Source of the DNA: a virus
Reading direction: 5' to 3' (one strand)
Virus record (IMG/VR): IMGVR_UViG_3300047311_000725
DNA: 64,000 bases
Shown here: positions 3,500-36,747 of the stretch, piece by piece
How the letters are laid out: each line of letters opens with the position of its first letter
How positions within the stretch are numbered: position 1 is the first letter of the stretch
Position numbers and translations under genes: made by a program
The notes under the pieces: model-generated
Databases searched by the model: none
Told to the model about the DNA's origin: nothing
Seen by the model: only the letters and a program-made list of their open reading frames with translations

Positions 3500-4018
3500 C
3501 TATCTCATGAGGAGCGGGATGATGTAGTCCAGCTCCGACTTGGTGTCGTTCTTGTAGTAGTCCACGTTCACTGGAACGACGTCGCAGTTCGTCCACTCCA
3601 TGAAGTCGAAGTAGGCGTCGTGGATCTCTTTGAGCTTGTTCTTCGGGACCAGCTCGTCCTCCCGGTTCTTCGTGTAGTCTTCACGCCACGGGATGATGAT
3701 GCGGGCGCCGAGCTCACTCCACTCCCGGTCCAGCTGAGAGAGGACCGAGAAGTTCGTCTCCCTCTTGAAGACCATGGAGTATACCCACTCGCTCGGCCAG
3801 GCGCGGTCGATGATGACCGAGCACCCGGTCTGCTTGAGGAATTGGGTGAGGTACGTCTGGTCGAACTCCAGCGCCTCCTTGAACTTCCCCTTGCGCCAGT
3901 TGTCGTGCTCCGAGTTCATCTTGAAGTACGGGACGCCGATCTCTTTGGAGAGAGCCTTGGCGATGGTGGTCTTCCCCACGCCGTCCGGTCCTTCGAAGAG
4001 GATGATGTCTTGCTTCAT
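3500..4018 (-). CDS. deoxynucleoside monophosphate kinase / thymidylate-kinase-like P-loop kinase
   Basis: Walker A GPDGVGKTT near N-terminus, ~172 aa, start ATG verified at 4016-4018. Confidence 0.65.
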   Translation of the reverse strand: MKQDIILFEGPDGVGKTTIAKALSKEIGVPYFKMNSEHDNWRKGKFKEALEFDQTYLTQFLKQTGCSVIIDRAWPSEWVYSMVFKRETNFSVLSQLDREWSELGARIIIPWREDYTKNREDELVPKNKLKEIHDAYFDFMEWTNCDVVPVNVDYYKNDTKSELDYIIPLLMR

Positions 4019-5153: not shown

Positions 5154-5155
5154 AC

Positions 5156-5380
5156 CTAGATGTACTCCCCATCGACGATCTTGAGAGCTGCTCGGCGAAC
5201 TTCCGCCATCGAACCGTAGGGACCGTGCGGCTTCTGGACTCCCGCCTGGACGAAGAACCACTCGTCCTCGATGCGGGTGATGTGGCCAAGATAACTGTCC
5301 TTGGCCATCTTGGGACCGTTCTCGTGGATGCTATCGACGCCTGCTCCGTCACTCATCCAGGTGATCTTGATCTTGGCCAT
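5156..5380 (-). CDS. hypothetical protein (74 aa)
   Basis: ORF with balanced composition between GT75 gene and flotillin gene. Confidence 0.45.
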   Translation of the reverse strand: MAKIKITWMSDGAGVDSIHENGPKMAKDSYLGHITRIEDEWFFVQAGVQKPHGPYGSMAEVRRAALKIVDGEYI

Positions 5381-7856: not shown

Positions 7857-10800
7857 CTAGAGACTTATGTCGTCCACATTGATGAAGGCCTGCATCGTCG
7901 AATGCTGGCTCTGCGCCCACCCCGGCCGGCCGAGCTTCAGGCGCTCGGGGTCATCGTCGATGTCTCTGTTGAAGGTGGCGATGTAGACCGAGCCTTTGCG
8001 GATGACGGGTGAGATCCACTTCCACATGTTCGCGAAGGCCGGGACGTCGAACGTCTCCCCGTCTTCCGTGGCGAACTTGATGAAGGCGAACATCTGCCCG
8101 TTGCGCTGGGGCTTCTCCTTCCACTCCTTCACCACGACCGGGAGCATCGTCATCTCTTCCTCGCCGCCGAGGAACTCCTCCATCGTGGAGACCACCCCAT
8201 CGAACATGGCGGTGATCTTCTTCTTCCGGTCGAGGATCTCGAAGGGAGTACCCGCGAGGCTGAACTCCATGAGCTCGTTCTCGAGGAAGACCTTCTCGTG
8301 GAGCTTGAAGTCTTCGATCTTCTCATCCGTCATGATCCGGGAGTAGAGCTCGTCCCAGCGTGGACGGCCCTTGACCGACTGGACTCGGGCCAGCTTCGGA
8401 CCGCCTGACACCTTCTCGTCGACGATCTTCAGCTCCCCGTCGAGGGTGACGAGGACGTTGTCGGTCCACTTCCGGTATGCCTCCCAGAGCCGCTTGATGT
8501 TGCCGCAGCCGGGGAGAGACCCGAAGGCTCCCACCTGGATGAGCGCCTCGACCGCCGTCTTGTTGGCCTTGGACCTGTCGAGGAAGTCCTGGAACGAGGT
8601 GTATGGTTGGTTGGCCACGATCTTTTCGATCACGGACGGACCCACGCCGAGGACACGTCCGAGGGCCAGCCGGATGCACAGGCCCTCGATGATGTTGGCC
8701 GCCCGGCTCTTGTTGATGTCCACCGGGAGGATCTTGATCCCCGTCTTCTGGATGTCTGCCACCAGAGTCTGGATCGCGTTGGCCTGCGCCTTCGTCAGGG
8801 CCGCCGTGTAGAACTCCAGCGGGTAGTAGGTCGCCAGGTGCGCCGTCTGCATCGTGGTGAGGGAGTAGGCATCCGAGTGGCTCTTGTTGAAGGCGTAGCC
8901 GCCGAAGGCCTTGATGTCTTCCCAGAGCTTCAGGGTCTTGTCTTCGGGGAAGCCGTGCTCCATGCAGCCCTTGTGGAAGCTGGCGTAGAGGACGTCGTTC
9001 TCCTGCTTCAAGAACTCTTCCGTCTTGCTCTTGTCCTTCTTCAGCAGGACCTTGCGGACGCGGTTGACTTCCTTGCCCGTCATCTTGCCGAAGACGGAGC
9101 AGACCTTCATGAGCTGCTCCTGGAAGACGAGGCAGCCCTTGGTCGAACCGAGGATCTCGTCCAGCACCGGGTGACCGAGGGAGGCGATCTCCCCGTGCTT
9201 CGCCGTGACGTAGACCTTGTCATACCCACCCTTGAGCGGGCCGGGGCGGTAGAGAGAGCAGATGGCCGAGACGTCGACGAAGCTGTCCGGCTTGACCCGC
9301 TTGGCCAGCGCCCGGATGCCCGGGTTCGAGAACTGGAAGATGGCTCCGAAGTTCCCGTCCCAGAAGATGTTCTTCATGACCTTGATGTCATCGAGGTCCA
9401 TGTTGTGCGAACGCAGTCCCTCGTAGAGTTCGTCGAAGCTCTTGCCGGTCCGTGAGCTGATGTGTTCCAGGGCGCACCGGATGACGCGCAGGTTGGCCAG
9501 CCCGAGGATGTCCATCTTGACGAAGCCCATGGCCGAGAGGTTCTTGTTGACGATGCCCTCGGTGAACGAGCACTGGACGACCATCTCGCCTTCTTCGGCC
9601 AGTGTGTCGTCCTCCCCGTCTTCGTTGTCCTTGGTCTTCTTGCCCTTGGCCTTGGCGACGAAGCAGCTGGTCTCCGCCGGCAGGTTGTCGCCGATGATGA
9701 CACCAGCCGCGTGCCGGGTGACGTGCCTGATCCGGCCGTAGAGAGTCTTGATCTTGCTGCCCAGGTCGGGGTTCTCTTCCACGAAGGTGTTGAACGACGG
9801 GCTGACCCGGATGATGTCGTCCAGCTTGACCACGAGGGTGCTCTTGTCCTGGTCCACGTAGAGGACCTTGAGCTCCTTGTCGATCTGCCGGTTGAGCTTG
9901 TTGATGAGGTTGTGGTCGACGCCGTACACACGCCCCAGGTCCTTCAGCAGTCCCTTGATCTGGAACGTGCCGTACGAGCTGAGGGAGGCGACGTTGTCGT
10001 CCCCGAACATCTTCTGAAGCATCCGCTTGGCGGCCTTGGGATCCTCGAAGTCCGTGTCGATGTCGGGGAGCTCGGCGCGGTCGATGTCGAGGAAGCGTTC
10101 GAAGAGCAGGTCTCTCTTGATCGGGTCGAGGTCCGTGATGCCCAGGCACCAGCACACGAGGGAGCCGGCGGCTGAGCCGCGGCCTGGACCGACAAGCATG
10201 TACTTCTTGGCTTCCTCGATGATCTGCTGGCAGACGAGGAAGTAGTTCGAGATCCCCTTCTGCTTGATGACCCCGAGCTCGAAGAGGAGGCGGTCCTTGT
10301 AGATCTCGTTCTCCGCCAGTCCCAGCTTCTTCAGGCCGGCGATGGCCCGCATGCCCATCTCCTTGTAGGGATTGGCGAAGGGGAGGGTGGGCAGGCGCTG
10401 GTGAGTGTCGGGCTCGAAGTCCTCGATGAGGCTGTCGATGAGGAGCGTCCCCTGGAACGCCTCCATCGCGGTCTTCGGATCGATGCAGTGACCGGCCAGC
10501 TTCTCGTAGGTGAGCCACATCTCCTCGGGAGACTTCACAAAGAGCTGCTTGACCTGTGAGTCGAGCTTCTGTTCCGGCAGGTCGGCGACCGTCTTCTTGC
10601 TCCAGCCCATGAGGTGGAGAAGCTCTCGTGGCTCCCACTCCGCCTGGGTGGCGTAGTGTGAGTCCGTGGTCACCGTCAGCGGGACGCCCGTCTCCTTGTG
10701 GAGCTGGACGAGGGAGGTGTTGATGTAGTTCTGCTCCTTGTCCATCTCGTTGAACTGGAGCTCGAGGTAGAACCGGCCACGGCCGAAGATCCGGTCGTAG

Positions 10801-11384
10801 TCGAGGACCTCGTTCTTGACGTCCTCCCAGGTGCAGGACCCTTCCTTCAGGTCCCACAGCCGCTTGGAGATGACGCCGCCCATGCAGGCCGAGGTCGCGA
10901 TCAGGCCCTTGGCGTGCTCCTGGAGCATCACCTTATCCATGCGTGGCTTCTGGTAGAAGCCAAACTTGTGGGCCTTGAACGTGAGCTGGTAGAGGTTGCT
11001 GAGACCCTCCCGGTTGCTGGCGAGGATGACGAGGTGGCCCTTGCGTCGAAGGGCCTTGGGATCGACGACGTCACCGTCGGCGGTGTACTCGTTGTCTTCC
11101 TTCTTGGCGCCCTTCCGCTTCTGGGAGTCGATCTCCCCCTTCAGCGCCTTCCACTCCTTGAGGTCGTGGATGACGTAGGCTTCCACGCCGAAGACGGTCT
11201 TCACGCCCATCTTCTTCCCCATCAGGTACCAGTCGGCGTGACCGTGTGTCACACCGTGATCGGTGAGGGCGATGGACTTGAGACCCTTCTCCTTCGCGGC
11301 CTTCAGCAGCTCTTCCGGGAGGGAGAGGCCGTCGAAGACCGAGAAGTGAGAATGGTTGTGAAAGGAGGCGAACTCCTTGAGCAT
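7857..11384 (-). CDS. dnaE: DNA polymerase III alpha subunit (DnaE-type, PHP domain)
   Basis: N-terminal PHP motif FHNHSHFSVFDG..LTDHG, 1175 aa C-family polymerase architecture. Confidence 0.9.
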   Translation of the reverse strand: MLKEFASFHNHSHFSVFDGLSLPEELLKAAKEKGLKSIALTDHGVTHGHADWYLMGKKMGVKTVFGVEAYVIHDLKEWKALKGEIDSQKRKGAKKEDNEYTADGDVVDPKALRRKGHLVILASNREGLSNLYQLTFKAHKFGFYQKPRMDKVMLQEHAKGLIATSACMGGVISKRLWDLKEGSCTWEDVKNEVLDYDRIFGRGRFYLELQFNEMDKEQNYINTSLVQLHKETGVPLTVTTDSHYATQAEWEPRELLHLMGWSKKTVADLPEQKLDSQVKQLFVKSPEEMWLTYEKLAGHCIDPKTAMEAFQGTLLIDSLIEDFEPDTHQRLPTLPFANPYKEMGMRAIAGLKKLGLAENEIYKDRLLFELGVIKQKGISNYFLVCQQIIEEAKKYMLVGPGRGSAAGSLVCWCLGITDLDPIKRDLLFERFLDIDRAELPDIDTDFEDPKAAKRMLQKMFGDDNVASLSSYGTFQIKGLLKDLGRVYGVDHNLINKLNRQIDKELKVLYVDQDKSTLVVKLDDIIRVSPSFNTFVEENPDLGSKIKTLYGRIRHVTRHAAGVIIGDNLPAETSCFVAKAKGKKTKDNEDGEDDTLAEEGEMVVQCSFTEGIVNKNLSAMGFVKMDILGLANLRVIRCALEHISSRTGKSFDELYEGLRSHNMDLDDIKVMKNIFWDGNFGAIFQFSNPGIRALAKRVKPDSFVDVSAICSLYRPGPLKGGYDKVYVTAKHGEIASLGHPVLDEILGSTKGCLVFQEQLMKVCSVFGKMTGKEVNRVRKVLLKKDKSKTEEFLKQENDVLYASFHKGCMEHGFPEDKTLKLWEDIKAFGGYAFNKSHSDAYSLTTMQTAHLATYYPLEFYTAALTKAQANAIQTLVADIQKTGIKILPVDINKSRAANIIEGLCIRLALGRVLGVGPSVIEKIVANQPYTSFQDFLDRSKANKTAVEALIQVGAFGSLPGCGNIKRLWEAYRKWTDNVLVTLDGELKIVDEKVSGGPKLARVQSVKGRPRWDELYSRIMTDEKIEDFKLHEKVFLENELMEFSLAGTPFEILDRKKKITAMFDGVVSTMEEFLGGEEEMTMLPVVVKEWKEKPQRNGQMFAFIKFATEDGETFDVPAFANMWKWISPVIRKGSVYIATFNRDIDDDPERLKLGRPGWAQSQHSTMQAFINVDDISL

Positions 11385-11921: not shown

Positions 11922-12986
11922 TTAGAAAATCCACCAGAGGTTCTTACGGCTTTCCCGTCCGCTCGGCATCCCGAGGAACGTGCGCCAGATCCGAGTCGAA
12001 GACTCCACGAAGTCGTTCAGGGCTTCCTGCTGCACCTTGACCGTCTTGTGGCTGCTCTCCAGTGCGCGGATGGCCTCGGTTGCCGCCTCCGAGGTGTCGT
12101 CGATGTTGGACTGGTACCTTTCCGGCACCCAGCTGACGGCCTCTCCGACGATCACTGGCACCCCGCTGGACACGGCGTCCGCGGCCACCAGGCAGAAGGT
12201 CTCGGTGGCGGACAGCTGGAAGACCAGGTCCATCTCAGCGATGGTCTCCCGGAAGGTGGCCGCGTCCTGCCAGCTCACCTCGATCAGCTTCGCCCAGGGG
12301 AGACCAGCGAAGAGGTTCCGCATCGTGTTCCGGACGCTGTGACCTCCCGGGGTATTGTCGGTATTGACGTAGAACTCCAGCTGCCGGTCGAGGCGGACGG
12401 CGACCTGAAGGGCCGCCAGTGCCGCGGAAGAGTGGAGCTTCAGGAGCCGGGTGGCACCGAAAGAAGCCAGCCTGAGGATGCGATCGTGGCTGTGCTTCTT
12501 CGGGGGAGACCCGTCCCAGTCGAAGAGGTTCGGCAGGTAGAGCACGTCGCCGTAGACTTCCCCGAGAGAGTTGCAGAACTCCTGGTTGTTGCTGGAGAAA
12601 GAGATGTTCGGGTACTCTTCCCCGAGGTCGATGAGGGCCCGGATGACCGGGATGGCCTCGGGCTCGACCTGGAGGAACCCGATCTTGGAGTGCGCCCGCA
12701 CCACGATCTTGAGGTGGGGGTGGGCGTGGGACAGGAGGACGACCTCGGACGCCTTGACCCAGACCGCCTCGATGACGGCGTGGGTGATGTCCGGGTTGGC
12801 CCGAAGGTAGGCCGCCAGCTCGTCGAAGCTGGACACGGCGACGAGGTCTACGTCTACACCCTCCCGACGGAGGACGCCGACGGTGTGCAGCGCGTTCGCC
12901 GCCAGTCCGCCCGTGTGGTAGGGATTGTGACCCTGTCCTGAGGACTTGGACTTGTAGAAGATCCTGAGCTTTGTCGTGCGCTTCAT
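11922..12986 (-). CDS. GT-B fold glycosyltransferase, GT4-like
   Basis: C-terminal ETFCLVAADAVSSGVPVI matches GT4 E-x7-E donor-binding motif; 354 aa. Confidence 0.7.
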   Translation of the reverse strand: MKRTTKLRIFYKSKSSGQGHNPYHTGGLAANALHTVGVLRREGVDVDLVAVSSFDELAAYLRANPDITHAVIEAVWVKASEVVLLSHAHPHLKIVVRAHSKIGFLQVEPEAIPVIRALIDLGEEYPNISFSSNNQEFCNSLGEVYGDVLYLPNLFDWDGSPPKKHSHDRILRLASFGATRLLKLHSSAALAALQVAVRLDRQLEFYVNTDNTPGGHSVRNTMRNLFAGLPWAKLIEVSWQDAATFRETIAEMDLVFQLSATETFCLVAADAVSSGVPVIVGEAVSWVPERYQSNIDDTSEAATEAIRALESSHKTVKVQQEALNDFVESSTRIWRTFLGMPSGRESRKNLWWIF

Positions 12987-13002
12987 CGCGAGAGTCTCCA
13001 GG

Positions 13003-13557
13003 CTAAGCCTTGGGGTTGTTTACCTTCAGAGTGGTAAGTAGCTCGTCTAGATCTTCTCTTTGCGTCCCGCATCGGACAAGCGGGATCCGCAGGTCGGACA
13101 GCATCCCATAGACGCCGTTGTCGATCTGCTTGGCCTGCTCCTCGTTCTGGAACCGACCCTCCTGCTTGTACGGCTTGGTGCGCTCCAGGAAGACGTGGTG
13201 GTGCTGGTGGCCGTCCTCGGCCGCCTGCCGGTAGTAGGCGAGGGTCATGGCCCGGACTCCCTCACTGACCGAGAGGGGAGAGAACTTGCTGGCGTAGTAG
13301 ATGCCCAGCATGATCGGGGCGTCGGTGACGATCATGTCCACCTTCCCGTAGAGGAAGCTCTCCCGACGGACCTGCTTGCCGAGCAGGTAGATCTGGTCGT
13401 AGGTGGAGATCGTGCGACCCTCCCACGCCCAGTCCTTGACGTACTCCCGCACGAGCTCGGCGTTCTTCCCCTGCGACTTCAGCAGGTAGAAGAGGTAGGC
13501 CGCCGAGGTGGACTTGCCGGTGCCCGGTCCACCGTAGAGATTGATGACTACGCTCAT
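13003..13557 (-). CDS. P-loop NTPase/kinase (AAA_33 / polynucleotide-kinase-like)
   Basis: Walker A GGPGTGKST at N-terminus (MSVVINLYGGPGTGKST), ~184 aa. Confidence 0.6.
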   Translation of the reverse strand: MSVVINLYGGPGTGKSTSAAYLFYLLKSQGKNAELVREYVKDWAWEGRTISTYDQIYLLGKQVRRESFLYGKVDMIVTDAPIMLGIYYASKFSPLSVSEGVRAMTLAYYRQAAEDGHQHHHVFLERTKPYKQEGRFQNEEQAKQIDNGVYGMLSDLRIPLVRCGTQREDLDELLTTLKVNNPKA

Positions 13558-13823
13558 TAGTACCTCTGGTCGTAGATGATGTGTTCGATCTTCGCCCTGA
13601 CCAGGGGGAGACCGTTGCGATTGGCCAGTCTGATGGCGCCGCGCATCTCGTCTTCGATCACTCCCTGCGACCCGTGCCACGCCGTCCAGTAGCAGTAGAG
13701 TCGTTGGCCGAGGACGGGATCGCCCTCGATCCGGCTGAACTTCCAGCCGTAGGGACACGACGCCTCGGCGAGCTTCGCCTGTTCAGCGTCGAACGTCAGG
13801 TGGCACTCGTACCCTCTATCCAT
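13557..13823 (-). CDS. hypothetical protein (88 aa)
   Basis: ORF with protein-like composition, ATGA overlap with downstream P-loop gene. Confidence 0.5.
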   Translation of the reverse strand: MDRGYECHLTFDAEQAKLAEASCPYGWKFSRIEGDPVLGQRLYCYWTAWHGSQGVIEDEMRGAIRLANRNGLPLVRAKIEHIIYDQRY

Positions 13824-14034
13824 CCACCACCTTCTTCAGCTCTTCCAGTTCCCGCTCCATCTCCGGGATCGCCGCCGCCCGTTCCTTGGCGTGCTGGATC
13901 TGGCAGGTCAGGACGCAGACCTTGCAGTACATCTGGTACGCGCCGTGGATGTAGGCCATCGTACCCTCCGTCCAGATCTCCGTCCCCTGACGGGTCAGGC
14001 ACCTGGCGCAGATGTCTCCCGGCAACCGGCCCAT
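13816..14034 (-). CDS. small zinc-ribbon-like protein (72 aa, CARC...CKVC)
   Basis: Start ATG 14032-14034 overlaps MazG stop (TGATG); two CxxC pairs. Confidence 0.35.
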   Translation of the reverse strand: MGRLPGDICARCLTRQGTEIWTEGTMAYIHGAYQMYCKVCVLTCQIQHAKERAAAIPEMERELEELKKVVDG

Positions 14035-14411
14035 CAGTAGCCCTTGGCCAGTCTTTCCTTGACGGTCTTGTTCTTGCGGCAGTACTCCTCGTAGAGGTCG
14101 TCCGCCCCGATCCCGCTGAGGAGACAGATCTCGAGGAAGAACGCGAAGGCGTCCCCGAGCTCTTCCTTGTAGTGACCGAAGTCGAGGGTGCGATCGTCGG
14201 TCAGCCGGTGCATCTTGTTCTTGAGGGTGGCCATCGCCTCGTGGAGTTCGTCGGAGAGGTTGAAGGCCGTCTCCTTGATGAGGCGTTGGCCGGGCTTGGT
14301 GGTGAGGTCCACCGGCCACTCGGGAAGCTTGTCGTTCACGCGCAGGAGTTCCATGAACTCCTCTTGACGCTTGAAGACGTCGTACAACATGTCGGGGGGA
14401 AGTGCGCTCAT
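14034..14411 (-). CDS. MazG-like NTP pyrophosphohydrolase (paralog 2; candidate dCTPase/dUTPase as in T4 gp56)
   Basis: KEELGDAFAFFLEI and upstream ELHEAMATL acidic helices typical of MazG/dimeric dUTPase fold; 125 aa. Confidence 0.7.
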   Translation of the reverse strand: MSALPPDMLYDVFKRQEEFMELLRVNDKLPEWPVDLTTKPGQRLIKETAFNLSDELHEAMATLKNKMHRLTDDRTLDFGHYKEELGDAFAFFLEICLLSGIGADDLYEEYCRKNKTVKERLAKGY

Positions 14412-14413
14412 TC

Positions 14414-14454
14414 TGTGATCCTCCGCTGATTAAATATGGGAGCGGAGGTCACAG
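14414..14454 (-). promoter_or_regulatory. RNA hairpin (14/15-bp inverted repeat) whose 3' arm contains the GGAGG RBS of the MazG-like gene
   Basis: Plus-strand ctgtgatcctccgct ... agcggaggtcacag separated by 12 nt loop; SD 8 nt before AUG lies inside stem. Confidence 0.4.
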
Positions 14455-14460
14455 GGACAA

Positions 14461-14940
14461 TCAATCCTGGTAGGACGGATTGCCCTTGGCGTCGGTCATG
14501 ACGAGCGGACCGACGTTGGACTTGCAGTTCCACGACTGGGCCGTCGGGTAGTTCTTCTCGACGATCTCGTGGAACCCGGCGCGCAGCCCCTCGTCTTCCG
14601 AGAAGAAGCACACCAGTCCGTTGGCCGCGGTGAGCTGCACCGCCGCCGTGACCAACCGCTCGTCCAGGACGTTCTCCCGGGCGATGAAGATGCGGTCGAA
14701 GACCCGCTCCGCCGACAGGAGCTTCTCGAGCTCCCGCTTGTTCTTGACGGTCGTGATGGTGCGAACGTTGCGCTTCACCGAGGGGAAGTACGCGTTCGAC
14801 CCGATGTAGAGCAGATCCTGACCGCGTCGCAGGTCGGTGACCCGGGTGAAGTCGTCGAACCTCGAGTACTCCTTGGGCGGGTAGCTCGGGGCGACCTCGA
14901 TCTCGAGGTCCTTGATCTGATCGCGGATGTTCTGTCCCAT
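14461..14940 (-). CDS. hypothetical protein (159 aa, starts MGQNIRDQIKD)
   Basis: Upstream 120 codons of listed ORF are Arg/Pro/Gly-rich read-through into the TS-like gene; ATG verified at 14938-14940. Confidence 0.55.
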   Translation of the reverse strand: MGQNIRDQIKDLEIEVAPSYPPKEYSRFDDFTRVTDLRRGQDLLYIGSNAYFPSVKRNVRTITTVKNKRELEKLLSAERVFDRIFIARENVLDERLVTAAVQLTAANGLVCFFSEDEGLRAGFHEIVEKNYPTAQSWNCKSNVGPLVMTDAKGNPSYQD

Positions 14941-14942
14941 GT

Positions 14943-15896
14943 TCAGCCTGCTTTCTTGTCTCCCTTGAGGGACTCTTCGGCGTCCCTCTTTTGCCGGTGT
15001 ACATTCAACTCGTCGGCCAGCCACAGCTCCCCGCCCTCGTACTTGGAGAGCTGGATCTGGTCGATGTAACGCTTGCGAAGCTCTTCCTCGTCGTAGCCCA
15101 GCTTGTCCAGAGACTCGAGGCTGGTGAGGGCCGGCATGGCGTCGTAGCACCTGAAGCCCTCGTCGTAGAGCTTGATGACCTCTTCGGCCATCTCGAAGTG
15201 GCGCTCGTACAGGTGGAGCGAGCCGGCCGTGTGGTAGTACTGGCCGAGGCGCAGGTCCGCGAACTTCGGGTTCTGCCGCTTCAGGTCCAGGAACATGCAC
15301 TCCTGGAAGAGCGTGAAGCTGAAGAGGTCATTCGTCAGGCCCCAGATGGCGTCGTTGGACCGCATGTGGACGTGCAGGTGGAGCGCGCCGTCACGGATGA
15401 AGAACTGGAGCGAGAGGGTGCAGGGCACGTCCTTCGATCCCTGGTGCACCGCCACGTCCGCGTCGATCGGGGCGAAGATGGTCATGACCGCCCGTCGACT
15501 GTCCGAGTCCCCCGACAGGGTGGCGATGCAGTTGTTCCACTGGCTGTCCATGTCCAGCAGGTCGGACCCCGCCCGGAGCCGGTAGCCGTACGCCGAGTTC
15601 AGCGTGTGGCCGTCGTCCGAGAAGTCCTTCATCCGCCGGTTGTAGTAGAGCATCATCTCCAGATCCCGGCGACCCTGCCAGTACCAGAGGAACTCCCCGG
15701 CCGCGAACCCGTAGTTCGACTTCCGGGCCGGGTTGTGGATGAAGCGGGACCGCGGGTCCGTCAGGACGAGCGTGAGGGCCAGGTCTTCCTTGATCTTCTG
15801 TCCACGCGGGGCGCAGACGAAGTCGGGGTTCCGGCTCAGCTTCCGAAGGAGCTTGACGAAGATGTCGTCGAACGAGACTCCGAGGATATCAGCCAT
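14943..15896 (-). CDS. thymidylate synthase-family dNMP hydroxymethylase (candidate dCMP hydroxymethylase; canonical ThyA not excluded)
   Basis: DVPCTLSLQFF (catalytic Cys, PC motif) and HMRSNDAIWGLTNDLFSF aligning to E. coli ThyA QRSCDVFLGLPFNIASY; Asp aligns at the Asn177 specificity position. Confidence 0.7.
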   Translation of the reverse strand: MADILGVSFDDIFVKLLRKLSRNPDFVCAPRGQKIKEDLALTLVLTDPRSRFIHNPARKSNYGFAAGEFLWYWQGRRDLEMMLYYNRRMKDFSDDGHTLNSAYGYRLRAGSDLLDMDSQWNNCIATLSGDSDSRRAVMTIFAPIDADVAVHQGSKDVPCTLSLQFFIRDGALHLHVHMRSNDAIWGLTNDLFSFTLFQECMFLDLKRQNPKFADLRLGQYYHTAGSLHLYERHFEMAEEVIKLYDEGFRCYDAMPALTSLESLDKLGYDEEELRKRYIDQIQLSKYEGGELWLADELNVHRQKRDAEESLKGDKKAG

Positions 15897-16866
15897 AGAT
15901 GTGCTCCAGGATTACTTCGCTCAGATCCTGCGGAAGCCTGTGCCCCGCGGCGCCTTTGTGGCCGCCACCACCAAGTAGGCCGGCTATCCGGCCAACGTCC
16001 AGCTCGCCGGCACGTGAGCGGATCCCGACCGCCCCCTTCTCGATGCAGACGCTGACAGCCATCTGCACCTGGGGGTAGACTTCCAGGAGCCGGTTGAGGA
16101 GGAGAGAGATGTTGGGCTCGTTGGTGACGACGAACCCTCCGATCACCTGGGTCCCGTCGGAGAGCTTGATCTCCTTCACCGTGACCTTCTTCATGGCCTC
16201 CTCGATCGCCTCATCTCGACGCCTGTCGAGGATGTTGATGATGTCGTCCTCGAACTGCGTGAAGTAGACCTTGCCACGACCGAGCGCGATGTTCTGACAG
16301 ATCCGGTCCTTCGGGTCGGCGAAGCGGGTGATGAAGTCCTGCTGGCCGACGAAGACCATGAAGGTCGCCAGGTCCTCCGAGAACGGGAGCTTCTGGCGTA
16401 GCCAGCGGTCGTGGTCGTCGATGGACTCGGCGAAAATCCGGTAGCTCGTGCTCTTGAGCCGCCGCCCGAATCCGACCTTGTTCTCGTCGTCGATCCTGAT
16501 CAGGTAGTCCCTGAGCATCATCGTGCCGCAGCGCTGGTTCTTCTCTTCGATCTCCGCCCAGTGACGGCCCAGCAGGTGGAGCGACGTGTCGTGGTGGTCG
16601 ATGAGGACCAGGTTGCCACGACGCTCGAGGACCTCGGCGTACTTCGGGGTGTTGAGCCCGACGTCCGCGAAGATCAGGAACTTGTTCGACTGGAAGACGG
16701 GATCCTTCTTGACGAACCTCTCGACCATGCCGGCGGCGACGTAGTGGATGTTCTCACGCTTCCCGCCCGCCAACATGAACATGATCGCGCATCCCGCGCC
16801 GTCCATGCAACCCTTGTGGGTCACGAGGGCAGCGTCTTCCAGATTCTCTGGTACCGGGAGTGCCAT
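15889..16866 (-). CDS. DHH-family phosphoesterase (NrnA/RecJ-like, DHH + DHHA1)
   Basis: LIDHHD motif and C-terminal GGGGHKGAAG (DHHA1). First in-frame ATG (16876-16878) overlaps the TATAAT box, so start at second ATG (MALPVPE) proposed. Confidence 0.7.
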   Translation of the reverse strand: MALPVPENLEDAALVTHKGCMDGAGCAIMFMLAGGKRENIHYVAAGMVERFVKKDPVFQSNKFLIFADVGLNTPKYAEVLERRGNLVLIDHHDTSLHLLGRHWAEIEEKNQRCGTMMLRDYLIRIDDENKVGFGRRLKSTSYRIFAESIDDHDRWLRQKLPFSEDLATFMVFVGQQDFITRFADPKDRICQNIALGRGKVYFTQFEDDIINILDRRRDEAIEEAMKKVTVKEIKLSDGTQVIGGFVVTNEPNISLLLNRLLEVYPQVQMAVSVCIEKGAVGIRSRAGELDVGRIAGLLGGGGHKGAAGHRLPQDLSEVILEHIYG

Positions 16867-16876
16867 TGTGAAATCC

Positions 16877-16887
16877 ATTATACCACG
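16877..16887 (-). promoter_or_regulatory. extended -10 promoter CGTGGTATAAT overlapping first ATG of DHH gene
   Basis: Plus-strand attataccacg; identical core to elements at 2801 and 47474. Confidence 0.45.
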
Positions 16888-16907
16888 ACTTTCTGCCTGA
16901 GTACAGG

Positions 16908-18662
16908 CTAGATGTCACACGAACCGTCCTTGCACGCGTCCTTTGAATATGACATGAGGATCTTGTCCCCCTTCCCCTTGAGGGCCGCCAAGGCTTCCTC
17001 GATGGAGAGCGGGGTGAGGGGCTGGTCTTCTCGGCTCCCCTCGGGGTAGATGGTCACGCCCTTGAGCTCCGGGAAGTACTCCATGTAGAGGTCACTGAGC
17101 TCCTCTGCCGAGGTCCCGGGCATGACGTTGATGGTCTTGCTGACCGCGTTGTCGATGTGCTTCTGACAGGCCCGCTGCACCTCGAAGTGGTCCCGGAGCT
17201 TGAGGTCATACGCTCCTTGGAAGTGCTTCGTGCTCTTCCCCTCTTCGACGAACTGCTTGAAGAGCGGGTGGATGACGATCTCCTGGGCCAACAGGTCGCC
17301 CTTCCGGAACTTCCGGATGTGGGCCGGGGCAAAGAGCGGCTCGATCCCTGAGGAGCAGTCGCAGACCAGGGCCGTGGTCCCGGTTGGCGGGATGGTGAGG
17401 AGGGCGCAGTTCCGGATCCCGTGCTCCCGGATGAGAGCGCGGAGACTCGGCTTCAGAGTCTTGGCGAAGCCGCCCTTCAGGTACTTCTCCGCGTCGAAGG
17501 CGGGGAACGGTCCCTTCTCCTTGGCCAGCTCGATCGAGGCCTCGTAGGCGGAGACCTTGATGAAGTTCATGACCTTGTCGATCATCTCCAGCCCATGGGC
17601 CGAGGCGTACTTCAGCCCGAGGAGGAGGAGCATGTCGTGGAGACCGAGCACACCCAGGCCGATGCGCCGGATGTTCGAGCACATCTCCTTGATCTCCTGG
17701 AGCGGGTAGTTGTTCACCGTCAGGACGTTGTCCAGGAAGCGGACCGAGGTGGCCACCGACTTCTTCAGCAGGTCCCAGTCCACCTTCCCGTCCTTCACGA
17801 ACCGGGGGAGGACCATCGACCCGAGGCAGCAGCAGTCGTAGGCCGTCAGCCAGATCTCGCCGCAGGGGTTGGTGCTGAGCAGCTCGGCGTAGTAGCCGAT
17901 GTTGCTCATCTTGTTGGCGAGGTAGCCGTTGAGGATGCCGGGCTCACCGCCGTGGAGAGCGTTGGAGATCAGGCGCTCCCAGAGCTTGTCGGCCGGGATC
18001 TTTCCGTAGAGCTTGCCGCCGTGACGGAGCTCGACGTCTTCCTTGGCCTTCACCTTCTTGAAGAAGAGCTCCGGGTCCTCGTTAAAGTTCACCGAGACGT
18101 TGGCGTTGTTGAGCTGCTTGAGGTCGAGCTTCTTGTCGAGGAACTCGAGGATGTCCGGGTGGTTCAGGTTGAGGCAGAACATGAGGGCGACCCGTCGACC
18201 GCCCCCGCCCTTGATGACATTGCCCCAGGCGTTCTGCCCTTCCATCGGGCTGCAGGCTCCCGTGGCCTGACCGCGGTGGCCAGCGATGTCGGCGCCGTTC
18301 GGCCTGACCGGGGAGAAGTTCGTCCCGATGCCACCTCCCTTGGAGGAGATGACGATCATGTCGTTGGCGTTCTTGCCCCAGCCTTCCGAGCTGTCGGTGA
18401 TGGGGATGACGAAGCAGTTGAGGAGCTGCCCCTTGGGACGGCCCGCTCCGTACCAGATGCGGCCACCCGGCATGAAGTAGTTGTGCTTCAGGAGCTCCGA
18501 GAACTCCGCCCGGTACTTGACTACGTTGCCGTTGGTCTCGGCACCGGCCACCACGGTGGCGAGCCGGTCGCAGCCCTCGTGGAAGGTCTCCTCCCCGTGA
18601 AGGGCATAGCGATCCTTATAGATCTCCAAGGCAAAGCCTTGGGGCTCGTAGTAAGCGCTCAT
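16908..18662 (-). CDS. ribonucleotide reductase catalytic subunit, class II (NrdJ)-like
   Basis: STNPCGE catalytic cysteine motif, C-terminal redox CKDGSCDI pair, 584 aa, no adjacent beta subunit. Confidence 0.75.
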   Translation of the reverse strand: MSAYYEPQGFALEIYKDRYALHGEETFHEGCDRLATVVAGAETNGNVVKYRAEFSELLKHNYFMPGGRIWYGAGRPKGQLLNCFVIPITDSSEGWGKNANDMIVISSKGGGIGTNFSPVRPNGADIAGHRGQATGACSPMEGQNAWGNVIKGGGGRRVALMFCLNLNHPDILEFLDKKLDLKQLNNANVSVNFNEDPELFFKKVKAKEDVELRHGGKLYGKIPADKLWERLISNALHGGEPGILNGYLANKMSNIGYYAELLSTNPCGEIWLTAYDCCCLGSMVLPRFVKDGKVDWDLLKKSVATSVRFLDNVLTVNNYPLQEIKEMCSNIRRIGLGVLGLHDMLLLLGLKYASAHGLEMIDKVMNFIKVSAYEASIELAKEKGPFPAFDAEKYLKGGFAKTLKPSLRALIREHGIRNCALLTIPPTGTTALVCDCSSGIEPLFAPAHIRKFRKGDLLAQEIVIHPLFKQFVEEGKSTKHFQGAYDLKLRDHFEVQRACQKHIDNAVSKTINVMPGTSAEELSDLYMEYFPELKGVTIYPEGSREDQPLTPLSIEEALAALKGKGDKILMSYSKDACKDGSCDI

Positions 18663-18676
18663 GTCTGAGGATCTCC

Positions 18677-20074
18677 CTAGTTGGAGTCGGGCTTCTTGTT
18701 GTCGACCATGCCGAGCTTCTTGAAGCGTTCGGCCGTCTTCTTCTTCAGGTTGTCGTTGTTCTCCAGGAAGATCGCGAGCGGATCCTCGCCCTGGTTGAGC
18801 ACCGAGACCTTGACCGTCGCCGTGTTGAGCGTGAAGGGATAGACCACGCCGTCACGGCCGAGTCGGGACTTGGCGATGAAGAGGCGTCCGCAGTTCATCT
18901 GCTTGTCCTCCGTACGCCGGCTGATCGTCATGATGACGTCGCACACGGTGGCCTTGGCGTAGGCCTCGCCGATCTGACCGATGGAGACGACCTCCATGTC
19001 GAGACCCGCGCGGTTCGTCTGGTCCGCCGTGATGAGGACGACCTTGAACTCCTGGGCCATCGCCCGGAGCTCCTCGTACACGCCCTCGAGCTCGAACCGC
19101 TTCTGCTCGAACCCGCGGCTCGAACGGAGGAGGTCGGCGTAGTCGATGATGATCATGTCCGGGATGAAGTTCTTGGTGGCCGTCAGGCGCTGGATGTACG
19201 CCCTGATGGTCTGGACCGTGGCCGTCTTGGTCGGGAACTCCTTGATGAAGAGCCCTCCCTTCGCCTTGTCCTTGACTTCCGCCCGCACCTTCTCCTGCTC
19301 GTTGGGCACGTCATTGATGGCGACGCCCGAGTAGTAGGAGTCGAAACGGAGACCGATCTTGTAGTCCGCCATTTCGCAGGTGACGTACAGGACGTTGAGC
19401 CCCTGCGCCACCGCGGCCGCCCCGCAGTTCACCAGGAACATGGACTTGCCGGCGCCGGTGGGAGCGATGAAGGTCACCAGGATGCCGCGCTCCCAGCCGC
19501 CGTTCAGCTCCTTGTCGATGATCTGCCAGCCGGTCGGGATGGGCTTCCGGATGCTCGCCTTGGAGCGGGCCGCGAATCCCGAGTCGTCCATGTACTCGTG
19601 GCCGAGGTCACGGGTCGCGCCCTTGTTGAGGGCGTCCTTGATGATGGTGGAGATCGACTCGTAGTCGTTCTGTTCGATCTTGTCGATCGCACAGACCATC
19701 GCCTCCTTCAGCGTCTGACGACGGCAGAAGTCCAGGGACGTTCCTTCGACGTAGCCGATGTCCCCGCCGAGCGGGTTCTCCTTGGCACGCTTCAGGAACT
19801 CCTTGCACTGCTGGGCGACCAGGTCGTTGTCCAGCTCCTTCTGCACCATGATCTCGATGAGGTCCGGCGACGGGAAGGTCTTGAACTCCAGGCGGTGACG
19901 GAAGACCAGCTTGGCGATCTCTTCCAGGTACTTGAGATCGAAGAACTTCGGGTCCAGGACGTCGATCACTTGCTCTGCGAAGAGCGGGTCCTGGATGACG
20001 GCCTGAACCACCTTCTCTTGATAGGAGCGCCCCATCGGTCCGAAGGTGTCGTTGGCCGGTAGCTGGTCAGACAT
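18677..20074 (-). CDS. DnaB-like replicative DNA helicase
   Basis: Walker A FIAPTGAGKS, RecA-like C-terminal domain with IIIDYADLL; start at MSDQLPAND (ATG 20072-20074). Confidence 0.8.
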   Translation of the reverse strand: MSDQLPANDTFGPMGRSYQEKVVQAVIQDPLFAEQVIDVLDPKFFDLKYLEEIAKLVFRHRLEFKTFPSPDLIEIMVQKELDNDLVAQQCKEFLKRAKENPLGGDIGYVEGTSLDFCRRQTLKEAMVCAIDKIEQNDYESISTIIKDALNKGATRDLGHEYMDDSGFAARSKASIRKPIPTGWQIIDKELNGGWERGILVTFIAPTGAGKSMFLVNCGAAAVAQGLNVLYVTCEMADYKIGLRFDSYYSGVAINDVPNEQEKVRAEVKDKAKGGLFIKEFPTKTATVQTIRAYIQRLTATKNFIPDMIIIDYADLLRSSRGFEQKRFELEGVYEELRAMAQEFKVVLITADQTNRAGLDMEVVSIGQIGEAYAKATVCDVIMTISRRTEDKQMNCGRLFIAKSRLGRDGVVYPFTLNTATVKVSVLNQGEDPLAIFLENNDNLKKKTAERFKKLGMVDNKKPDSN

Positions 20075-36706: not shown

Positions 36707-36711
36707 TGCAT

Positions 36712-36722
36712 ATAATATCATG
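36712..36722 (-). promoter_or_regulatory. promoter-like CATGATATTAT element 5 nt upstream of family-A polymerase ATG
   Basis: Variant of TGnTATAAT family. Confidence 0.3.
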
Positions 36723-36747
36723 TGCAGGAGGAAAAGGGAAGGAAAAC

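What the first reader, a model, noticed from the sequence alone, without database searches (positions are those of the whole stretch)
14034..15896. MazG-like pyrophosphatase plus TS-family hydroxymethylase with Asp at the base-specificity position
Aligning HMRSNDAIWGLTNDLFSF to E. coli ThyA QRSCDVFLGLPFNIASY puts an Asp where ThyA has Asn177. dCMP hydroxymethylases carry Asp there; dUMP-specific enzymes carry Asn. This favours a dCMP hydroxymethylase making 5-hm-dCMP. The adjacent MazG-like gene would then be the dCTPase that excludes unmodified dCTP, as T4 gp56 does. A dCMP deaminase (641..1060) and a dNMP kinase (3500..4018) complete a T-even-like hmC pathway. The alignment was done by eye and could be off by one.
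Basis: partly seen in the sequence, partly recalled or inferred. Interest (0 to 1): 0.6.

Follow-up and report, generated by a model that had tools for sequence, protein, structure and literature searches.

The report
Phage dCMP hydroxymethylase with NTP pyrophosphatase
An uncultivated, high-GC tailed phage carries a thymidylate-synthase relative whose active-site residues all match enzymes that make 5-hydroxymethyl-dCMP, together with a gp56-like nucleotide pyrophosphatase, kinases and sugar transferases, so it very probably replaces cytosine in its DNA with (possibly sugar-decorated) hydroxymethylcytosine: a known anti-restriction strategy seen here in a phage lineage with no cultured member.

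Summary
14943..15896(-) encodes a 317-aa thymidylate-synthase-family protein and 14034..14411(-) a 125-aa all-alpha NTP pyrophosphatase. They are not strictly adjacent: a 159-aa methyltransferase-fold ORF (14461..14940) lies between them.

Alignments that recover the published residue numbers of T4 gp42 and MilA put Asp190 at E. coli ThyA Asn177. Every other published discriminator agrees:
- Asp156, three residues before catalytic Cys159, and Ser101-x-Tyr103 mark hydroxymethylation rather than methylation.
- Asp182 (not Asn) argues against an RB69-type 5-hydroxy-dCMP synthase.
- Arg134 and Ser180 indicate a deoxyribo substrate, unlike MilA.

These residues are invariant in the 120 closest homologues.

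The pyrophosphatase falls in the same Pfam family as RB69 dCTPase gp56 (PF08761) and matches gp56's PHROG (phrog_173) as its second-best hit. It keeps the acidic metal motif and follows the TS gene in seven related contigs. Its dCTP specificity is inferred, not shown.

Other parts of the pathway are present: a dCMP deaminase, two P-loop kinases (one RB69 gp45-like), a GT4-like glycosyltransferase and a conserved RGP/GT75-like protein.

Verdict: a new member of a known kind, a dCMP hydroxymethylase pathway in an uncultured myovirus clade. Interest is moderate.

The parts
14943..15896 (-). Thymidylate-synthase-family protein, 317 aa; predicted dCMP 5-hydroxymethylase. Key residues: E68, S101-A-Y103, R134, R135, D156, C159, T160, R179, S180, D182, D190, H228, Y230.
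   Evidence: PF00303 E=1e-20. Best solved relative is MilA CMP hydroxymethylase, E=1e-41, then T4 gp42 at 7e-15 and ThyA at about 1e-10. Residue mapping. Invariance in homologues.
14461..14940 (-). 159-aa ORF between the TS homologue and the pyrophosphatase, with a class I SAM-methyltransferase-like fold; function unknown.
14412..14460 (-). Spacer containing a stable hairpin whose 3' arm contains the GGAGG ribosome-binding site of the pyrophosphatase gene.
   Evidence: Folding energy -23.1 kcal/mol, z=-4.8. A hairpin with altered stem sequence is kept in L010, L011 and L012.
14034..14411 (-). 125-aa all-alpha NTP pyrophosphohydrolase (MazG-like, dimeric dUTPase/gp56 family); candidate dCTPase/dUTPase.
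   Evidence: PF08761 at 23.0 bits. phrog_12184 E=5e-13 and phrog_173 E=1.2e-5. RB69 gp56 is also in PF08761 and phrog_173. hhalign to RB69 gp56: E=5.6e-5, with a shared C-terminal KN..R..GY. AF2 pLDDT 92, four helices. Foldseek top hits are DR2231 dUTPase and mouse/human dCTPase. Invariant E55, E58, E83, E84, D87.
15889..16878 (-). DHH/DHHA1 phosphoesterase, 329 aa. Its stop overlaps the TS start by 8 nt, and it is the conserved upstream neighbour.
   Evidence: phrog_4771 E=6e-23; DHHA1 and DHH Pfam hits fall just below cut-off. DHH-TS adjacency is seen in L005-L008, L010 and L012.
13003..13560 (-). P-loop nucleotide kinase, 185 aa (AAA_28; PHROG annotated 'thymidylate kinase'); candidate kinase for the modified dNMP.
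   Evidence: PF13521 E=9e-10; phrog_2107 E=4e-10. Present with the GT4 gene only in the closest relative, L011.
11922..12986 (-). GT4-like (GT-B) glycosyltransferase, 354 aa; candidate DNA hmC glycosyltransferase.
   Evidence: PF20706 GT4-conflict at 27.2 bits (cut-off 26), with weaker matches to Glycos_transf_1 and BshA. A weak PDB hit to 3mbo BaBshA; 3mbo is also the top Foldseek template of the DLP3 DNA arabinosyltransferases in PMC13326640.
4020..5153 (-). RGP/GT75-like protein (family of UDP-arabinopyranose mutase and reversibly glycosylated polypeptide); candidate sugar-nucleotide mutase or glycosyltransferase.
   Evidence: PF03214 E=3.6e-35. PDB 8cid UDP-arabinopyranose mutase, E=1.7e-14. 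DDDC and PRGIPF motifs are conserved. Conserved after DnaE in L005 and L007. The start is probably M37 or M39 of the long ORF 4020..5261.
3500..4018 (-). P-loop nucleotide kinase of the RB69 gp45 type.
   Evidence: phrog_761 E=2e-13. RB69 gp45 is in phrog_761, E=1.6e-45. blastp to RB69 gp45 E=2e-6 and to phage G gp315 E=1e-6.
1583..2794 (-). 403-aa conserved protein, orthologue of the L007 gene that carries a faint Glyco_trans_1_2 hit; possible second glycosyltransferase.
   Evidence: 55% identity to the L007 378-aa protein, whose precomputed Pfam hit is Glyco_trans_1_2 (faint). No direct family or PDB hit here.
641..1060 (-). dCMP deaminase, 139 aa.
   Evidence: phrog_174 E=5e-47; ComEB-type NCBIfam hit E=2e-22.

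Best explanation
The 317-aa protein is a folate-dependent deoxycytidylate 5-hydroxymethylase. Cys159 attacks C6 of dCMP and Asp190 reads the cytosine N3/N4 face. The methylene of CH2-THF is transferred to C5. Asp156 with Ser101 and Tyr103 then positions and activates a water that hydrates the exocyclic methylene, giving 5-hm-dCMP and THF instead of a methyl product and DHF. The 125-aa all-alpha pyrophosphatase one gene downstream most likely hydrolyses dCTP, and probably dUTP, to the monophosphate. That would both remove the canonical competitor and feed the hydroxymethylase, as T4/RB69 gp56 does. Phage P-loop kinases plus host NDP kinase would raise hm-dCMP to hm-dCTP, and the phage DnaE-type polymerase would incorporate it. 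The GT4-like and RGP/GT75-like proteins would then decorate hmC in DNA with sugar. The dCMP deaminase balances the dTTP supply. What is shown by computation: family membership, every published active-site discriminator, conservation across the clade, and synteny. What is inferred: catalytic activity, the dCTP specificity of the pyrophosphatase, which kinase acts on hm-dCMP, and whether glycosylation occurs and with what sugar.
For: TS-family membership and closest solved relatives: MilA CMP hydroxymethylase 146 bits, T4 dCMP hydroxymethylase 58 bits, ThyA 42 bits. Residues in ThyA numbering: N177->D190, L143->D156, C146->C159, H147->T160, D169->D182, R126->R134, S167->S180, Y94->Y103 with S101 two residues before it. 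The meaning of these residues comes from PMC13326640, PMC6400193, PMC5175136 and the MetaGPA study PMC8670742, where Asp177 tracks cytosine-modified viral contigs. Alignment controls recover the published numbering of T4 and MilA and the N169 of RB69 gp48. All 120 closest homologues carry D143/C146/T147/S167/D169/D177. 152 of 157 aligned sequences (diverse representatives plus the query and reference enzymes) have Asp at Cys-3. All seven NCBIfam thymidylate-synthase equivalog models score far below cut-off, for example 59 against 327 bits. For the pyrophosphatase: the same Pfam family as the experimentally known dCTPase RB69 gp56, and a second-best match (E=1.2e-5) to gp56's PHROG; an hhalign match to gp56; an intact ExxE...EExxD acidic motif; and a confident four-helix model matching MazG-like dUTPase and DCTPP1 dCTPase. 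Synteny DHH-TS-(0 or 1 small gene)-pyrophosphatase holds in seven contigs whose TS proteins are 52-96% identical to the query. Kinase plus glycosyltransferase next to a TS homologue is the layout of the proven RB69, DLP3 and RL38J1 hypermodification clusters. No second TS homologue occurs in the window.
Against: No biochemical or nucleoside data exist for this protein or any member of its clade. The D169N rule for 5-hydroxy-dCMP synthases rests on Straboviridae plus nine diverse tested enzymes, so an exception is conceivable. The enzyme is only about 26% identical to T4 gp42 (tblastn), and it carries a roughly 75-residue C-terminal extension of unknown role. The pyrophosphatase only just passes the Pfam threshold. 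Its best Foldseek hit, DR2231, is a dUTP-specific enzyme, the Foldseek E-values are weak (0.05-0.2), and it has no sequence match in the PDB. Neither kinase is a T4 gp1 homologue. The GT4 and orf403 assignments are weak. Only 64 kb of a genome that, judging from related contigs of up to about 200 kb, is much larger is visible, so a separate dCTPase, dUTPase or thymidylate synthase elsewhere cannot be excluded.
Confidence: 0.72

Rival explanations
1. The TS homologue is a flavin- and O2-dependent 5-hydroxy-dCMP synthase like RB69 gp48, DLP3 gp80 and RL38J1 gp216. The phage would then make glycosylated 5-hydroxycytosine rather than hydroxymethylcytosine.
For: Like those enzymes it has Asp at 177 and an acidic residue at 143. 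MilA is also their best structural match, and they too sit beside nucleotide kinases and glycosyltransferases. The window has an RB69 gp45-type kinase and a protein of the UDP-arabinopyranose-mutase family.
Against: The diagnostic D169N substitution is absent. The query has Asp182, as do all 120 close homologues and nearly all 150 representatives, while RB69 gp48 shows Asn in the same alignment. The query scores 49 bits to RB69 gp48 against 145 bits to MilA. Gly186 (ThyA G173) is also retained, unlike in gp48.
Confidence: 0.08
2. The TS homologue is a dCMP methyltransferase that makes 5-methyl-dCMP, as proposed for Xanthomonas phage XP12-type systems, using hydride transfer like ThyA.
For: Asp at position 177 alone is enough to turn ThyA into a dCMP methylase (work cited in PMC8670742).
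Against: Methylating enzymes keep a bulky hydrophobic residue at ThyA-143. Here it is Asp156 paired with Ser101-x-Tyr103, the hydroxymethylase signature, and T4 D145N abolishes hm-dCMP formation. The ThyA C-terminal tail needed for closure over the cofactor does not align in the query; its C-terminal extension is unrelated to the ThyA C-terminus.
Confidence: 0.05
3. The TS homologue is an ordinary thymidylate synthase or a SPO1-type dUMP hydroxymethylase, and the MazG-like protein is simply a dUTPase supplying dUMP.
For: Source databases annotate the homologues as 'thymidylate synthase'. SPO1 gp29 and SP10 dUMP hydroxymethylases are fairly close relatives at 104-105 bits. The best structural hit of the pyrophosphatase is a dUTPase. 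A dCMP deaminase that makes dUMP is present.
Against: Asn177 is replaced by Asp190, invariantly, whereas SPO1 and SP10 keep Asn in the same alignment. His147 is Thr. All NCBIfam TS equivalog scores are far below cut-off.
Confidence: 0.04
4. The TS homologue is a dCMP hydroxymethylase, but the neighbouring pyrophosphatase is a house-cleaning dUTPase (or acts on another non-canonical dNTP) and does not exclude dCTP. Replacement of C would then be partial, or would depend on another enzyme outside the window.
For: PF08761 is mainly a dUTPase family. The top Foldseek hit is DR2231, a dUTP-specific enzyme. No residue-level rule for dCTP against dUTP could be applied. Phage G and RsoM2USA carry Asp177 TS homologues with no recognisable MazG-like neighbour.
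Against: gp56 itself is in PF08761 and phrog_173 and hydrolyses both dCTP and dUTP. The tight, conserved linkage is to an enzyme whose substrate is dCMP. Mouse and human dCTPase are equally good structural matches (probability 0.99).
Confidence: 0.3

Closest known systems
Bacteriophage T4 gp42 deoxycytidylate 5-hydroxymethylase (PDB 1b49, 6a9a)
   Same: Same superfamily and the same full set of functional residues: E60/E68, S94-x-Y96/S101-x-Y103, R123/R134, D145/D156, C148/C159, T149/T160, S169/S180, D171/D182, D179/D190, H216/H228, Y218/Y230 (T4/query). It is likewise accompanied by a gp56-family pyrophosphatase, a dCMP deaminase and glycosyltransferase candidates.
   Different: Only 58 bits and about 26% identity. 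The query is 71 residues longer, with a C-terminal extension, and belongs to a different branch of hydroxymethylases. The kinases are not gp1 homologues. The polymerase is DnaE-type, not family B. The glycosyltransferase candidates are unrelated to T4 alpha- and beta-GT.
Streptomyces rimofaciens MilA, CMP 5-hydroxymethylase (PDB 5b6d, 5jnh)
   Same: Closest solved relative (E=1e-41, residues 8-243). Same Asp at the cytosine-specificity position, same Asp at Cys-3, same Thr after the Cys.
   Different: MilA has Lys133' and Ala176, which give it a preference for ribo-CMP. The query has Arg134 and Ser180, the deoxyribo state, which is equivalent to the MilA A176S/K133R double mutant that switches to dCMP. 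MilA serves antibiotic biosynthesis in a bacterium, not phage DNA modification.
Bacillus phage G gp319 and Ralstonia phage RsoM2USA_10 (uncharacterised TS homologues of jumbo phages)
   Same: Closest proteins in isolated phages (36% and 34% identity), with the same D143/C146/T147/D169/D177 signature. Phage G also has a glucosyltransferase, a kinase, a dCMP deaminase and DnaE nearby.
   Different: Neither has been characterised. No MazG-like neighbour was recognised next to them. The genomes are otherwise unrelated to the window.
RB69 gp48 / DLP3 gp80 5-hydroxy-dCMP synthases with their kinase-glycosyltransferase clusters (PMC13326640)
   Same: A TS homologue with Asp177 and acidic 143, clustered with an RB69 gp45-type nucleotide kinase and GT-B glycosyltransferases, plus a gp56 dCTPase.
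   Different: Those enzymes carry D169N and use flavin and O2 to make 5-hydroxy-dCMP. The query keeps Asp182. The sugar-activation genes (arabinose-5-P isomerase, HAD phosphatase, kinase/uridylyltransferase) were not found among the window ORFs scanned; an RGP/GT75-like gene is present instead.
T4/RB69 gp56 dCTPase-dUTPase (PF08761, phrog_173)
   Same: The window protein also hits PF08761 and, as its second-best PHROG, gp56's phrog_173. All-alpha fold, acidic metal-binding motif, identical C-terminal KN..R..GY ending.
   Different: 125 aa against 173 aa. Only the C-terminal 57 residues align (hhalign probability 66%). Substrate preference is unknown.

Membership tests
Thymidylate synthase superfamily (PF00303) | Significant match to the family profile above the curated threshold | tested here: met
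   74.4 bits against a cut-off of 24.3, E=1.1e-20.
Thymidylate synthase superfamily (PF00303) | Catalytic Cys nucleophile plus phosphate- and ribose-binding residues (ThyA C146, R166, R126', R127', H207, Y209, E58, Y94) | tested here: met
   C159, R179, R134, R135, H228, Y230, E68 and Y103 are all present and invariant in 120 homologues.
Canonical thymidylate synthase ThyA (dUMP to dTMP) | Asn at position 177, Leu at 143, His at 147, and a score above the NCBIfam equivalog cut-offs | tested here: not met
   The query has D190, D156 and T160. The best NCBIfam TS equivalog scores 59 bits against a cut-off of 327.
dCMP 5-hydroxymethylase (T4 gp42 function) | Asp at the ThyA-177 / T4-179 position (cytosine specificity) | tested here: met
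   D190, from HMMER and MAFFT alignments with a numbering control.
dCMP 5-hydroxymethylase (T4 gp42 function) | [quoted passage not shown] | tested here: met
   D156...C159 and S101-A-Y103. Asp at Cys-3 in 152 of 157 sequences, and S101 invariant in the close homologues.
dCMP 5-hydroxymethylase (T4 gp42 function) | Arg126' and Ser167 (2'-deoxyribose preference; PMC5175136) | tested here: met
   R134 and S180.
dCMP 5-hydroxymethylase (T4 gp42 function) | CH2-THF-dependent conversion of dCMP to 5-hm-dCMP, and hmC in virion DNA | not testable with these tools
   Needs an enzyme assay or nucleoside LC-MS. No isolate of this phage clade exists in the phage collection searched.
5-hydroxy-dCMP synthase (RB69 gp48 type) | Asn replacing ThyA Asp169 (D169N) | tested here: not met
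   The query has D182, while RB69 gp48 shows N in the same alignment. Asp is invariant in the homologues.
CMP 5-hydroxymethylase (MilA/BcmA type) | Lys133' and Ala176 in the ribose pocket | tested here: not met
   The query has R134 and S180. Only a few distant representatives have the K/A combination.
dUMP hydroxymethylase (SPO1 gp29 type) | Asn at ThyA-177 with Asp at Cys-3 | tested here: not met
   SPO1 gp29 and SP10 have N and the query has D.
gp56-type dCTPase / dimeric dUTPase family (PF08761, all-alpha NTP pyrophosphatase) | Profile match above the Pfam threshold, and a shared family with gp56 | tested here: met
   23.0 bits against a cut-off of 22.9, which is marginal. phrog_173 E=1.2e-5. 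RB69 gp56 is in the same Pfam family and in phrog_173. hhalign E=5.6e-5.
gp56-type dCTPase / dimeric dUTPase family (PF08761, all-alpha NTP pyrophosphatase) | Four-helix all-alpha fold with an acidic ExxE...ExxD metal-binding motif | tested here: met
   AF2 pLDDT 92 with four helices. Foldseek hits to DR2231, DCTPP1 and iMazG. E55, E58, E83, E84 and D87 are invariant.
gp56-type dCTPase / dimeric dUTPase family (PF08761, all-alpha NTP pyrophosphatase) | Hydrolysis of dCTP (and dCDP) to dCMP | not testable with these tools
   No sequence rule for dCTP against dUTP specificity could be applied. The assignment is inferred from synteny with a dCMP-using enzyme.

The most novel reading that the evidence does not exclude
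A large, uncultured clade of high-GC myoviruses (related contigs of roughly 10 to 200 kb recovered here) uses a MilA-like dCMP hydroxymethylase as the entry point to a cytosine hypermodification not yet described. In this reading the conserved RGP/GT75-like protein is either a new class of DNA-base glycosyltransferase or a phage UDP-sugar (arabinose) pyranose-furanose mutase that supplies the sugar. No member of this protein family has been linked to phage DNA modification: it matched a single uncultured record in the phage collection and no paper in the literature search. It would act with an RB69 gp45-type kinase and GT-B enzymes. In a subclade, the methyltransferase-fold orf159 inserted between the hydroxymethylase and the pyrophosphatase would add a further chemical step.
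Probability: 0.25. Interest if true: 0.65.

Novelty: new member of a known kind. Interest (0 to 1): 0.38.

Why it matters
If correct, this extends pre-replicative hydroxymethylcytosine replacement beyond T-even phages. It would place the pathway in a widespread environmental myovirus lineage with a DnaE-type replisome and no cultured representative. It also shows that the MilA-like branch of the TS family is dominated by deoxy-specific, cytosine-specific enzymes. Practically, such DNA resists many restriction enzymes, is read differently by methylation-sensitive and bisulfite-type assays and may be under-represented in libraries made with restriction enzymes, so metagenomic studies of these phages could be biased. 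The enzyme set (hydroxymethylase, gp56-like pyrophosphatase, compact kinases, candidate glycosyltransferases) is a source of tools for making modified DNA. The chemistry itself is textbook, so the interest lies in the lineage and in the unexplored accessory genes (RGP/GT75-like, orf159).

Tried and rejected
- Megablast of 13000..19000 against 50,697 phage records found nothing. tblastn with DnaE gave at most 30% identity. No cultured relative was therefore available to supply experimental data.
- phmmer of the pyrophosphatase against the PDB found nothing, and a profile search gave only a marginal MazG-like hit, 1vmg at E=0.015. The fold assignment had to come from AF2 and Foldseek.
- I considered and rejected the 5-hydroxy-dCMP synthase, dCMP methylase, dUMP hydroxymethylase, ThyA and ribo-CMP hydroxymethylase readings on residue evidence (see the rival explanations).
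- I looked for a MazG-like neighbour next to the Asp177 TS homologues of phage G and RsoM2USA and found none. The TS-pyrophosphatase linkage is therefore specific to this clade.
- Two literature searches on the PDB 'transglycosylase' relatives of the RGP-like protein (7xpr; GT75) returned nothing useful. A search for 'reversibly glycosylated' together with bacteriophage returned no paper.
- orf403 (1583..2794) gave no PDB or family hit. Its glycosyltransferase label rests only on a faint precomputed hit in an orthologue.
- A fast MAFFT alignment of 150 representatives misaligned the loop before the catalytic Cys and RB69 gp48. I replaced it with a direct count of the residue at Cys-3.
- I did not model the TS protein, because fold search returns no residue-level alignment and the sequence alignments were already validated by the numbering controls.

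Full report
**What is there.** The window is 62% G+C, and all credible genes lie on the minus strand. It is part of a contractile-tailed phage genome. It encodes a sheath, tube, baseplate and major head protein, a DnaE-type polymerase, DnaB, a RecA/UvsX-like recombinase and a class II ribonucleotide reductase.

The transcription order around the finding is:
- ribonucleotide reductase, 16908..18662
- DHH/DHHA1 phosphoesterase, 15889..16878
- thymidylate-synthase (TS) homologue, 14943..15896, whose start overlaps the DHH stop by 8 nt
- orf159, 14461..14940, which starts 2 nt after the TS stop
- a 49-nt spacer with a hairpin
- a MazG-like pyrophosphatase, 14034..14411
- small ORFs
- a P-loop kinase, 13003..13560
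- a GT4-like glycosyltransferase, 11922..12986
- GroES

. The coordinates given in the finding are therefore right. The two genes are one gene apart, not adjacent.

**The observation.** The TS homologue matches PF00303 well above threshold. Against all PDB sequences its best relatives are MilA, the CMP 5-hydroxymethylase of mildiomycin biosynthesis (E=1e-41), and then T4 dCMP hydroxymethylase (E=7e-15). Ordinary thymidylate synthases come later, at about 1e-10.

Both the HMMER alignments and independent MAFFT alignments put the Asp of 'LTND' (Asp190) on E. coli ThyA Asn177, T4 Asp179 and MilA Asp186.
- The alignment reproduces the residue numbers printed in the structural papers: T4 E60, R123, D145, C148, S169, D179, H216, Y218, and MilA E68, K133, C155, A176, D186, H216, Y218.
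- RB69 gp48, added as a control, shows exactly the published E143/N169/D177 pattern.

**Which chemistry.** Four papers supply sequence rules that I could test.
- Asp at ThyA-177 selects cytosine. In metaviromes it tracks contigs whose cytosines are modified, together with a change at His147 (PMC8670742). The query has D190 and T160.
- Hydroxymethylation rather than methylation needs Asp or Glu three residues before the catalytic Cys. It also needs a Ser/Thr-x-Tyr that holds the substrate water. T4 D145N, S94N and Y96F are inactive (PMC6400193). The query has D156...C159 and S101-A-Y103.
- RB69-type enzymes, which make 5-hydroxy-dCMP with flavin and O2, carry Asn at ThyA-169 (PMC13326640). The query has Asp182.
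- MilA prefers ribo-CMP because of Lys133' and Ala176, and the A176S/K133R mutant switches to dCMP (PMC5175136). The query has Arg134 and Ser180.

Every rule points to 5-hydroxymethyl-dCMP from dCMP.

The residues are not idiosyncratic.
- All 120 closest database homologues (51-96% identity) have the same seven residues, and S101 is invariant in them.
- Among 150 diverse representatives of 50%-identity clusters, essentially all full-length sequences have D169 and D177. A handful carry the MilA-like K/A pair.
- 152 of 157 aligned sequences (the representatives plus the query and reference enzymes) have Asp at Cys-3.
- The seven NCBIfam thymidylate-synthase equivalog models all score far below their cut-offs.
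- No second TS homologue is present in the window.

By score the protein is closest to Bacillus phage G gp319 (161 bits) and MilA (145 bits). SPO1 and SP10 dUMP hydroxymethylases follow at about 104 bits. T4 gp42 (58), RB69 gp48 (49) and ThyA (42) are much further away. It is therefore a hydroxymethylase of the MilA/phage G branch with the T4 functional signature, not a close T4 relative.

**The pyrophosphatase.**
- The 125-aa protein just passes the PF08761 (dUTPase_2) threshold. It hits phrog_12184 and, more weakly, phrog_173.
- RB69 gp56, the T-even dCTPase/dUTPase, also falls in PF08761 and defines phrog_173.
- A profile of 55 homologues aligns to the C-terminal 57 residues of gp56 (E=5.6e-5). 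Both proteins end in KN..R..GY.
- The family keeps invariant E55, E58, E83, E84 and D87, the acidic metal-binding pattern of MazG-like enzymes.
- An AlphaFold model (pLDDT 92) is a four-helix protein. Its best Foldseek matches are the Deinococcus MazG-like dUTPase DR2231 and mouse/human dCTPase DCTPP1.

So 'MazG-like' is right at the fold level, and 'gp56-family' is more precise. Whether it prefers dCTP, dUTP or both cannot be read from the sequence.

The argument for dCTP is contextual. In seven contigs whose TS proteins are 52-96% identical to the query, the order DHH, TS, zero or one small gene, pyrophosphatase is conserved. The product of a dCTPase is the substrate of the neighbouring enzyme. 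I put this sub-claim at about 0.6.

**The rest of the pathway.**
- The dCMP deaminase at 641..1060 is solid.
- The kinase at 3500..4018 belongs to phrog_761, as does RB69 gp45, and matches gp45 directly. It is not a T4 gp1-type dNMP kinase.
- In RB69, DLP3 and RL38J1 this kinase type sits next to DNA glycosyltransferases and the TS homologue. Here it sits next to an RGP/GT75-like protein (PF03214 E=4e-35; PDB UDP-arabinopyranose mutase E=2e-14; DDD and RG-x-PF motifs retained). It also lies near orf403, whose orthologue has a faint glycosyltransferase hit. This DnaE, small gene, RGP, kinase block is conserved in distant relatives.
- A second kinase (AAA_28) and a GT4-like glycosyltransferase lie just downstream of the pyrophosphatase. 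This pair occurs only in the window and its closest relative, which looks like an accessory module. The GT4 protein's weak PDB match is 3mbo BshA. That is also the top Foldseek template reported for the DLP3 DNA arabinosyltransferases.
- Phage G, the closest isolate for the TS protein, also has a glucosyltransferase, a kinase, a dCMP deaminase and DnaE around its Asp177 homologue.

**Mechanism proposed.** Each step is marked as shown or inferred.
- The pyrophosphatase converts dCTP to dCMP (inferred). The DHH phosphoesterase may also supply dNMPs from oligonucleotides (speculative; the only evidence is the conserved overlap with the TS gene).
- dCMP and CH2-THF give 5-hm-dCMP through Cys159, Asp190, Asp156, Ser101 and Tyr103. 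The residues are shown; the activity is inferred.
- Phage kinases and host NDP kinase give hm-dCTP (inferred).
- The DnaE-type replisome incorporates hm-dCTP (inferred).
- GT4-like and/or RGP-like proteins add sugar to hmC in DNA (inferred, low confidence).
- The dCMP deaminase diverts part of the dCMP to dUMP for host thymidylate synthesis (inferred by analogy with T4 cd).

**Comparison with what is known.** The system works like the T-even pathway and passes every sequence-level membership test for a dCMP hydroxymethylase. It fails the tests for ThyA, dUMP hydroxymethylase, ribo-CMP hydroxymethylase and 5-hydroxy-dCMP synthase. The differences from T4 are the lineage of the enzyme, the kinases, the replisome and the candidate sugar enzymes.

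No cultured phage in a 50,697-record collection is related at the DNA level. The best protein identities there are 30-36%. The RGP-like protein has a single hit in that collection, in an uncultured 595-kb phage.

**Verdict.** I score it as a new member of a known kind, with moderate interest (0.38). The most novel reading still open is that the conserved RGP/GT75-like gene and the methyltransferase-fold orf159 mark an undescribed cytosine hypermodification built on hmC in this uncultured clade.

Noticed in passing
window 14412..14460 (-): The 49-nt spacer before the pyrophosphatase gene folds into a stable hairpin (-23.1 kcal/mol, z=-4.8) whose 3' arm contains the GGAGG ribosome-binding site. 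Hairpins with altered stem sequences occur at the same place in L010, L011 and L012. This may be translational control or an RNA processing site.
   Followed up: partly
[not shown]
   Followed up: partly
window 4020..5261 (-), probable start near 5153: A protein of the plant 'reversibly glycosylated polypeptide' / UDP-arabinopyranose mutase family (GT75). It is conserved directly after DnaE in distant relatives and nearly absent from sequenced phage isolates.
   Followed up: partly
window 25820..32725 (-): A 2301-aa protein with an aminoglycoside-phosphotransferase-like kinase segment (about residues 1150-1207) and a cytidylyltransferase-like domain (1522-1679). A 2206-aa homologue lies at the same position in L007 and L008. 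This domain pair resembles sugar-activating enzymes.
   Followed up: no
window 15889..16878 (-): A DHH/DHHA1 phosphoesterase whose stop overlaps the hydroxymethylase start by 8 nt. The arrangement is conserved in all related contigs examined. It may supply mononucleotides from oligonucleotides.
   Followed up: partly
window 45795..46029 (-): ARAGORN calls three clustered tRNA genes: two tRNA-Ile with the unusual anticodon AAT, and one with an undetermined anticodon.
   Followed up: no
window 35267..36946 (-) and 7857..11384 (-): Two DNA polymerases occur in one phage window: a family A polymerase domain protein (559 aa) in addition to the 1175-aa DnaE-type polymerase.
   Followed up: no
window 13816..14034 (-): A possible 72-aa Cys-rich (CxxC...CxxC) ORF that starts at an ATG overlapping the pyrophosphatase stop codon (TGATG). 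Relatives have a shorter called gene at this position.
   Followed up: no
L001 3402..4397 (Bacillus phage G gp315): The phage G 'thymidylate kinase' near its Asp177 TS homologue is a fusion of a P-loop kinase with a uracil-DNA-glycosylase-superfamily domain.
   Followed up: no
representatives (e.g. P0283, P0288, P0292, P0340): Many diverse Asp177 TS homologues are 460-550 aa long, which implies fusion to an extra C-terminal domain of unknown identity.
   Followed up: no
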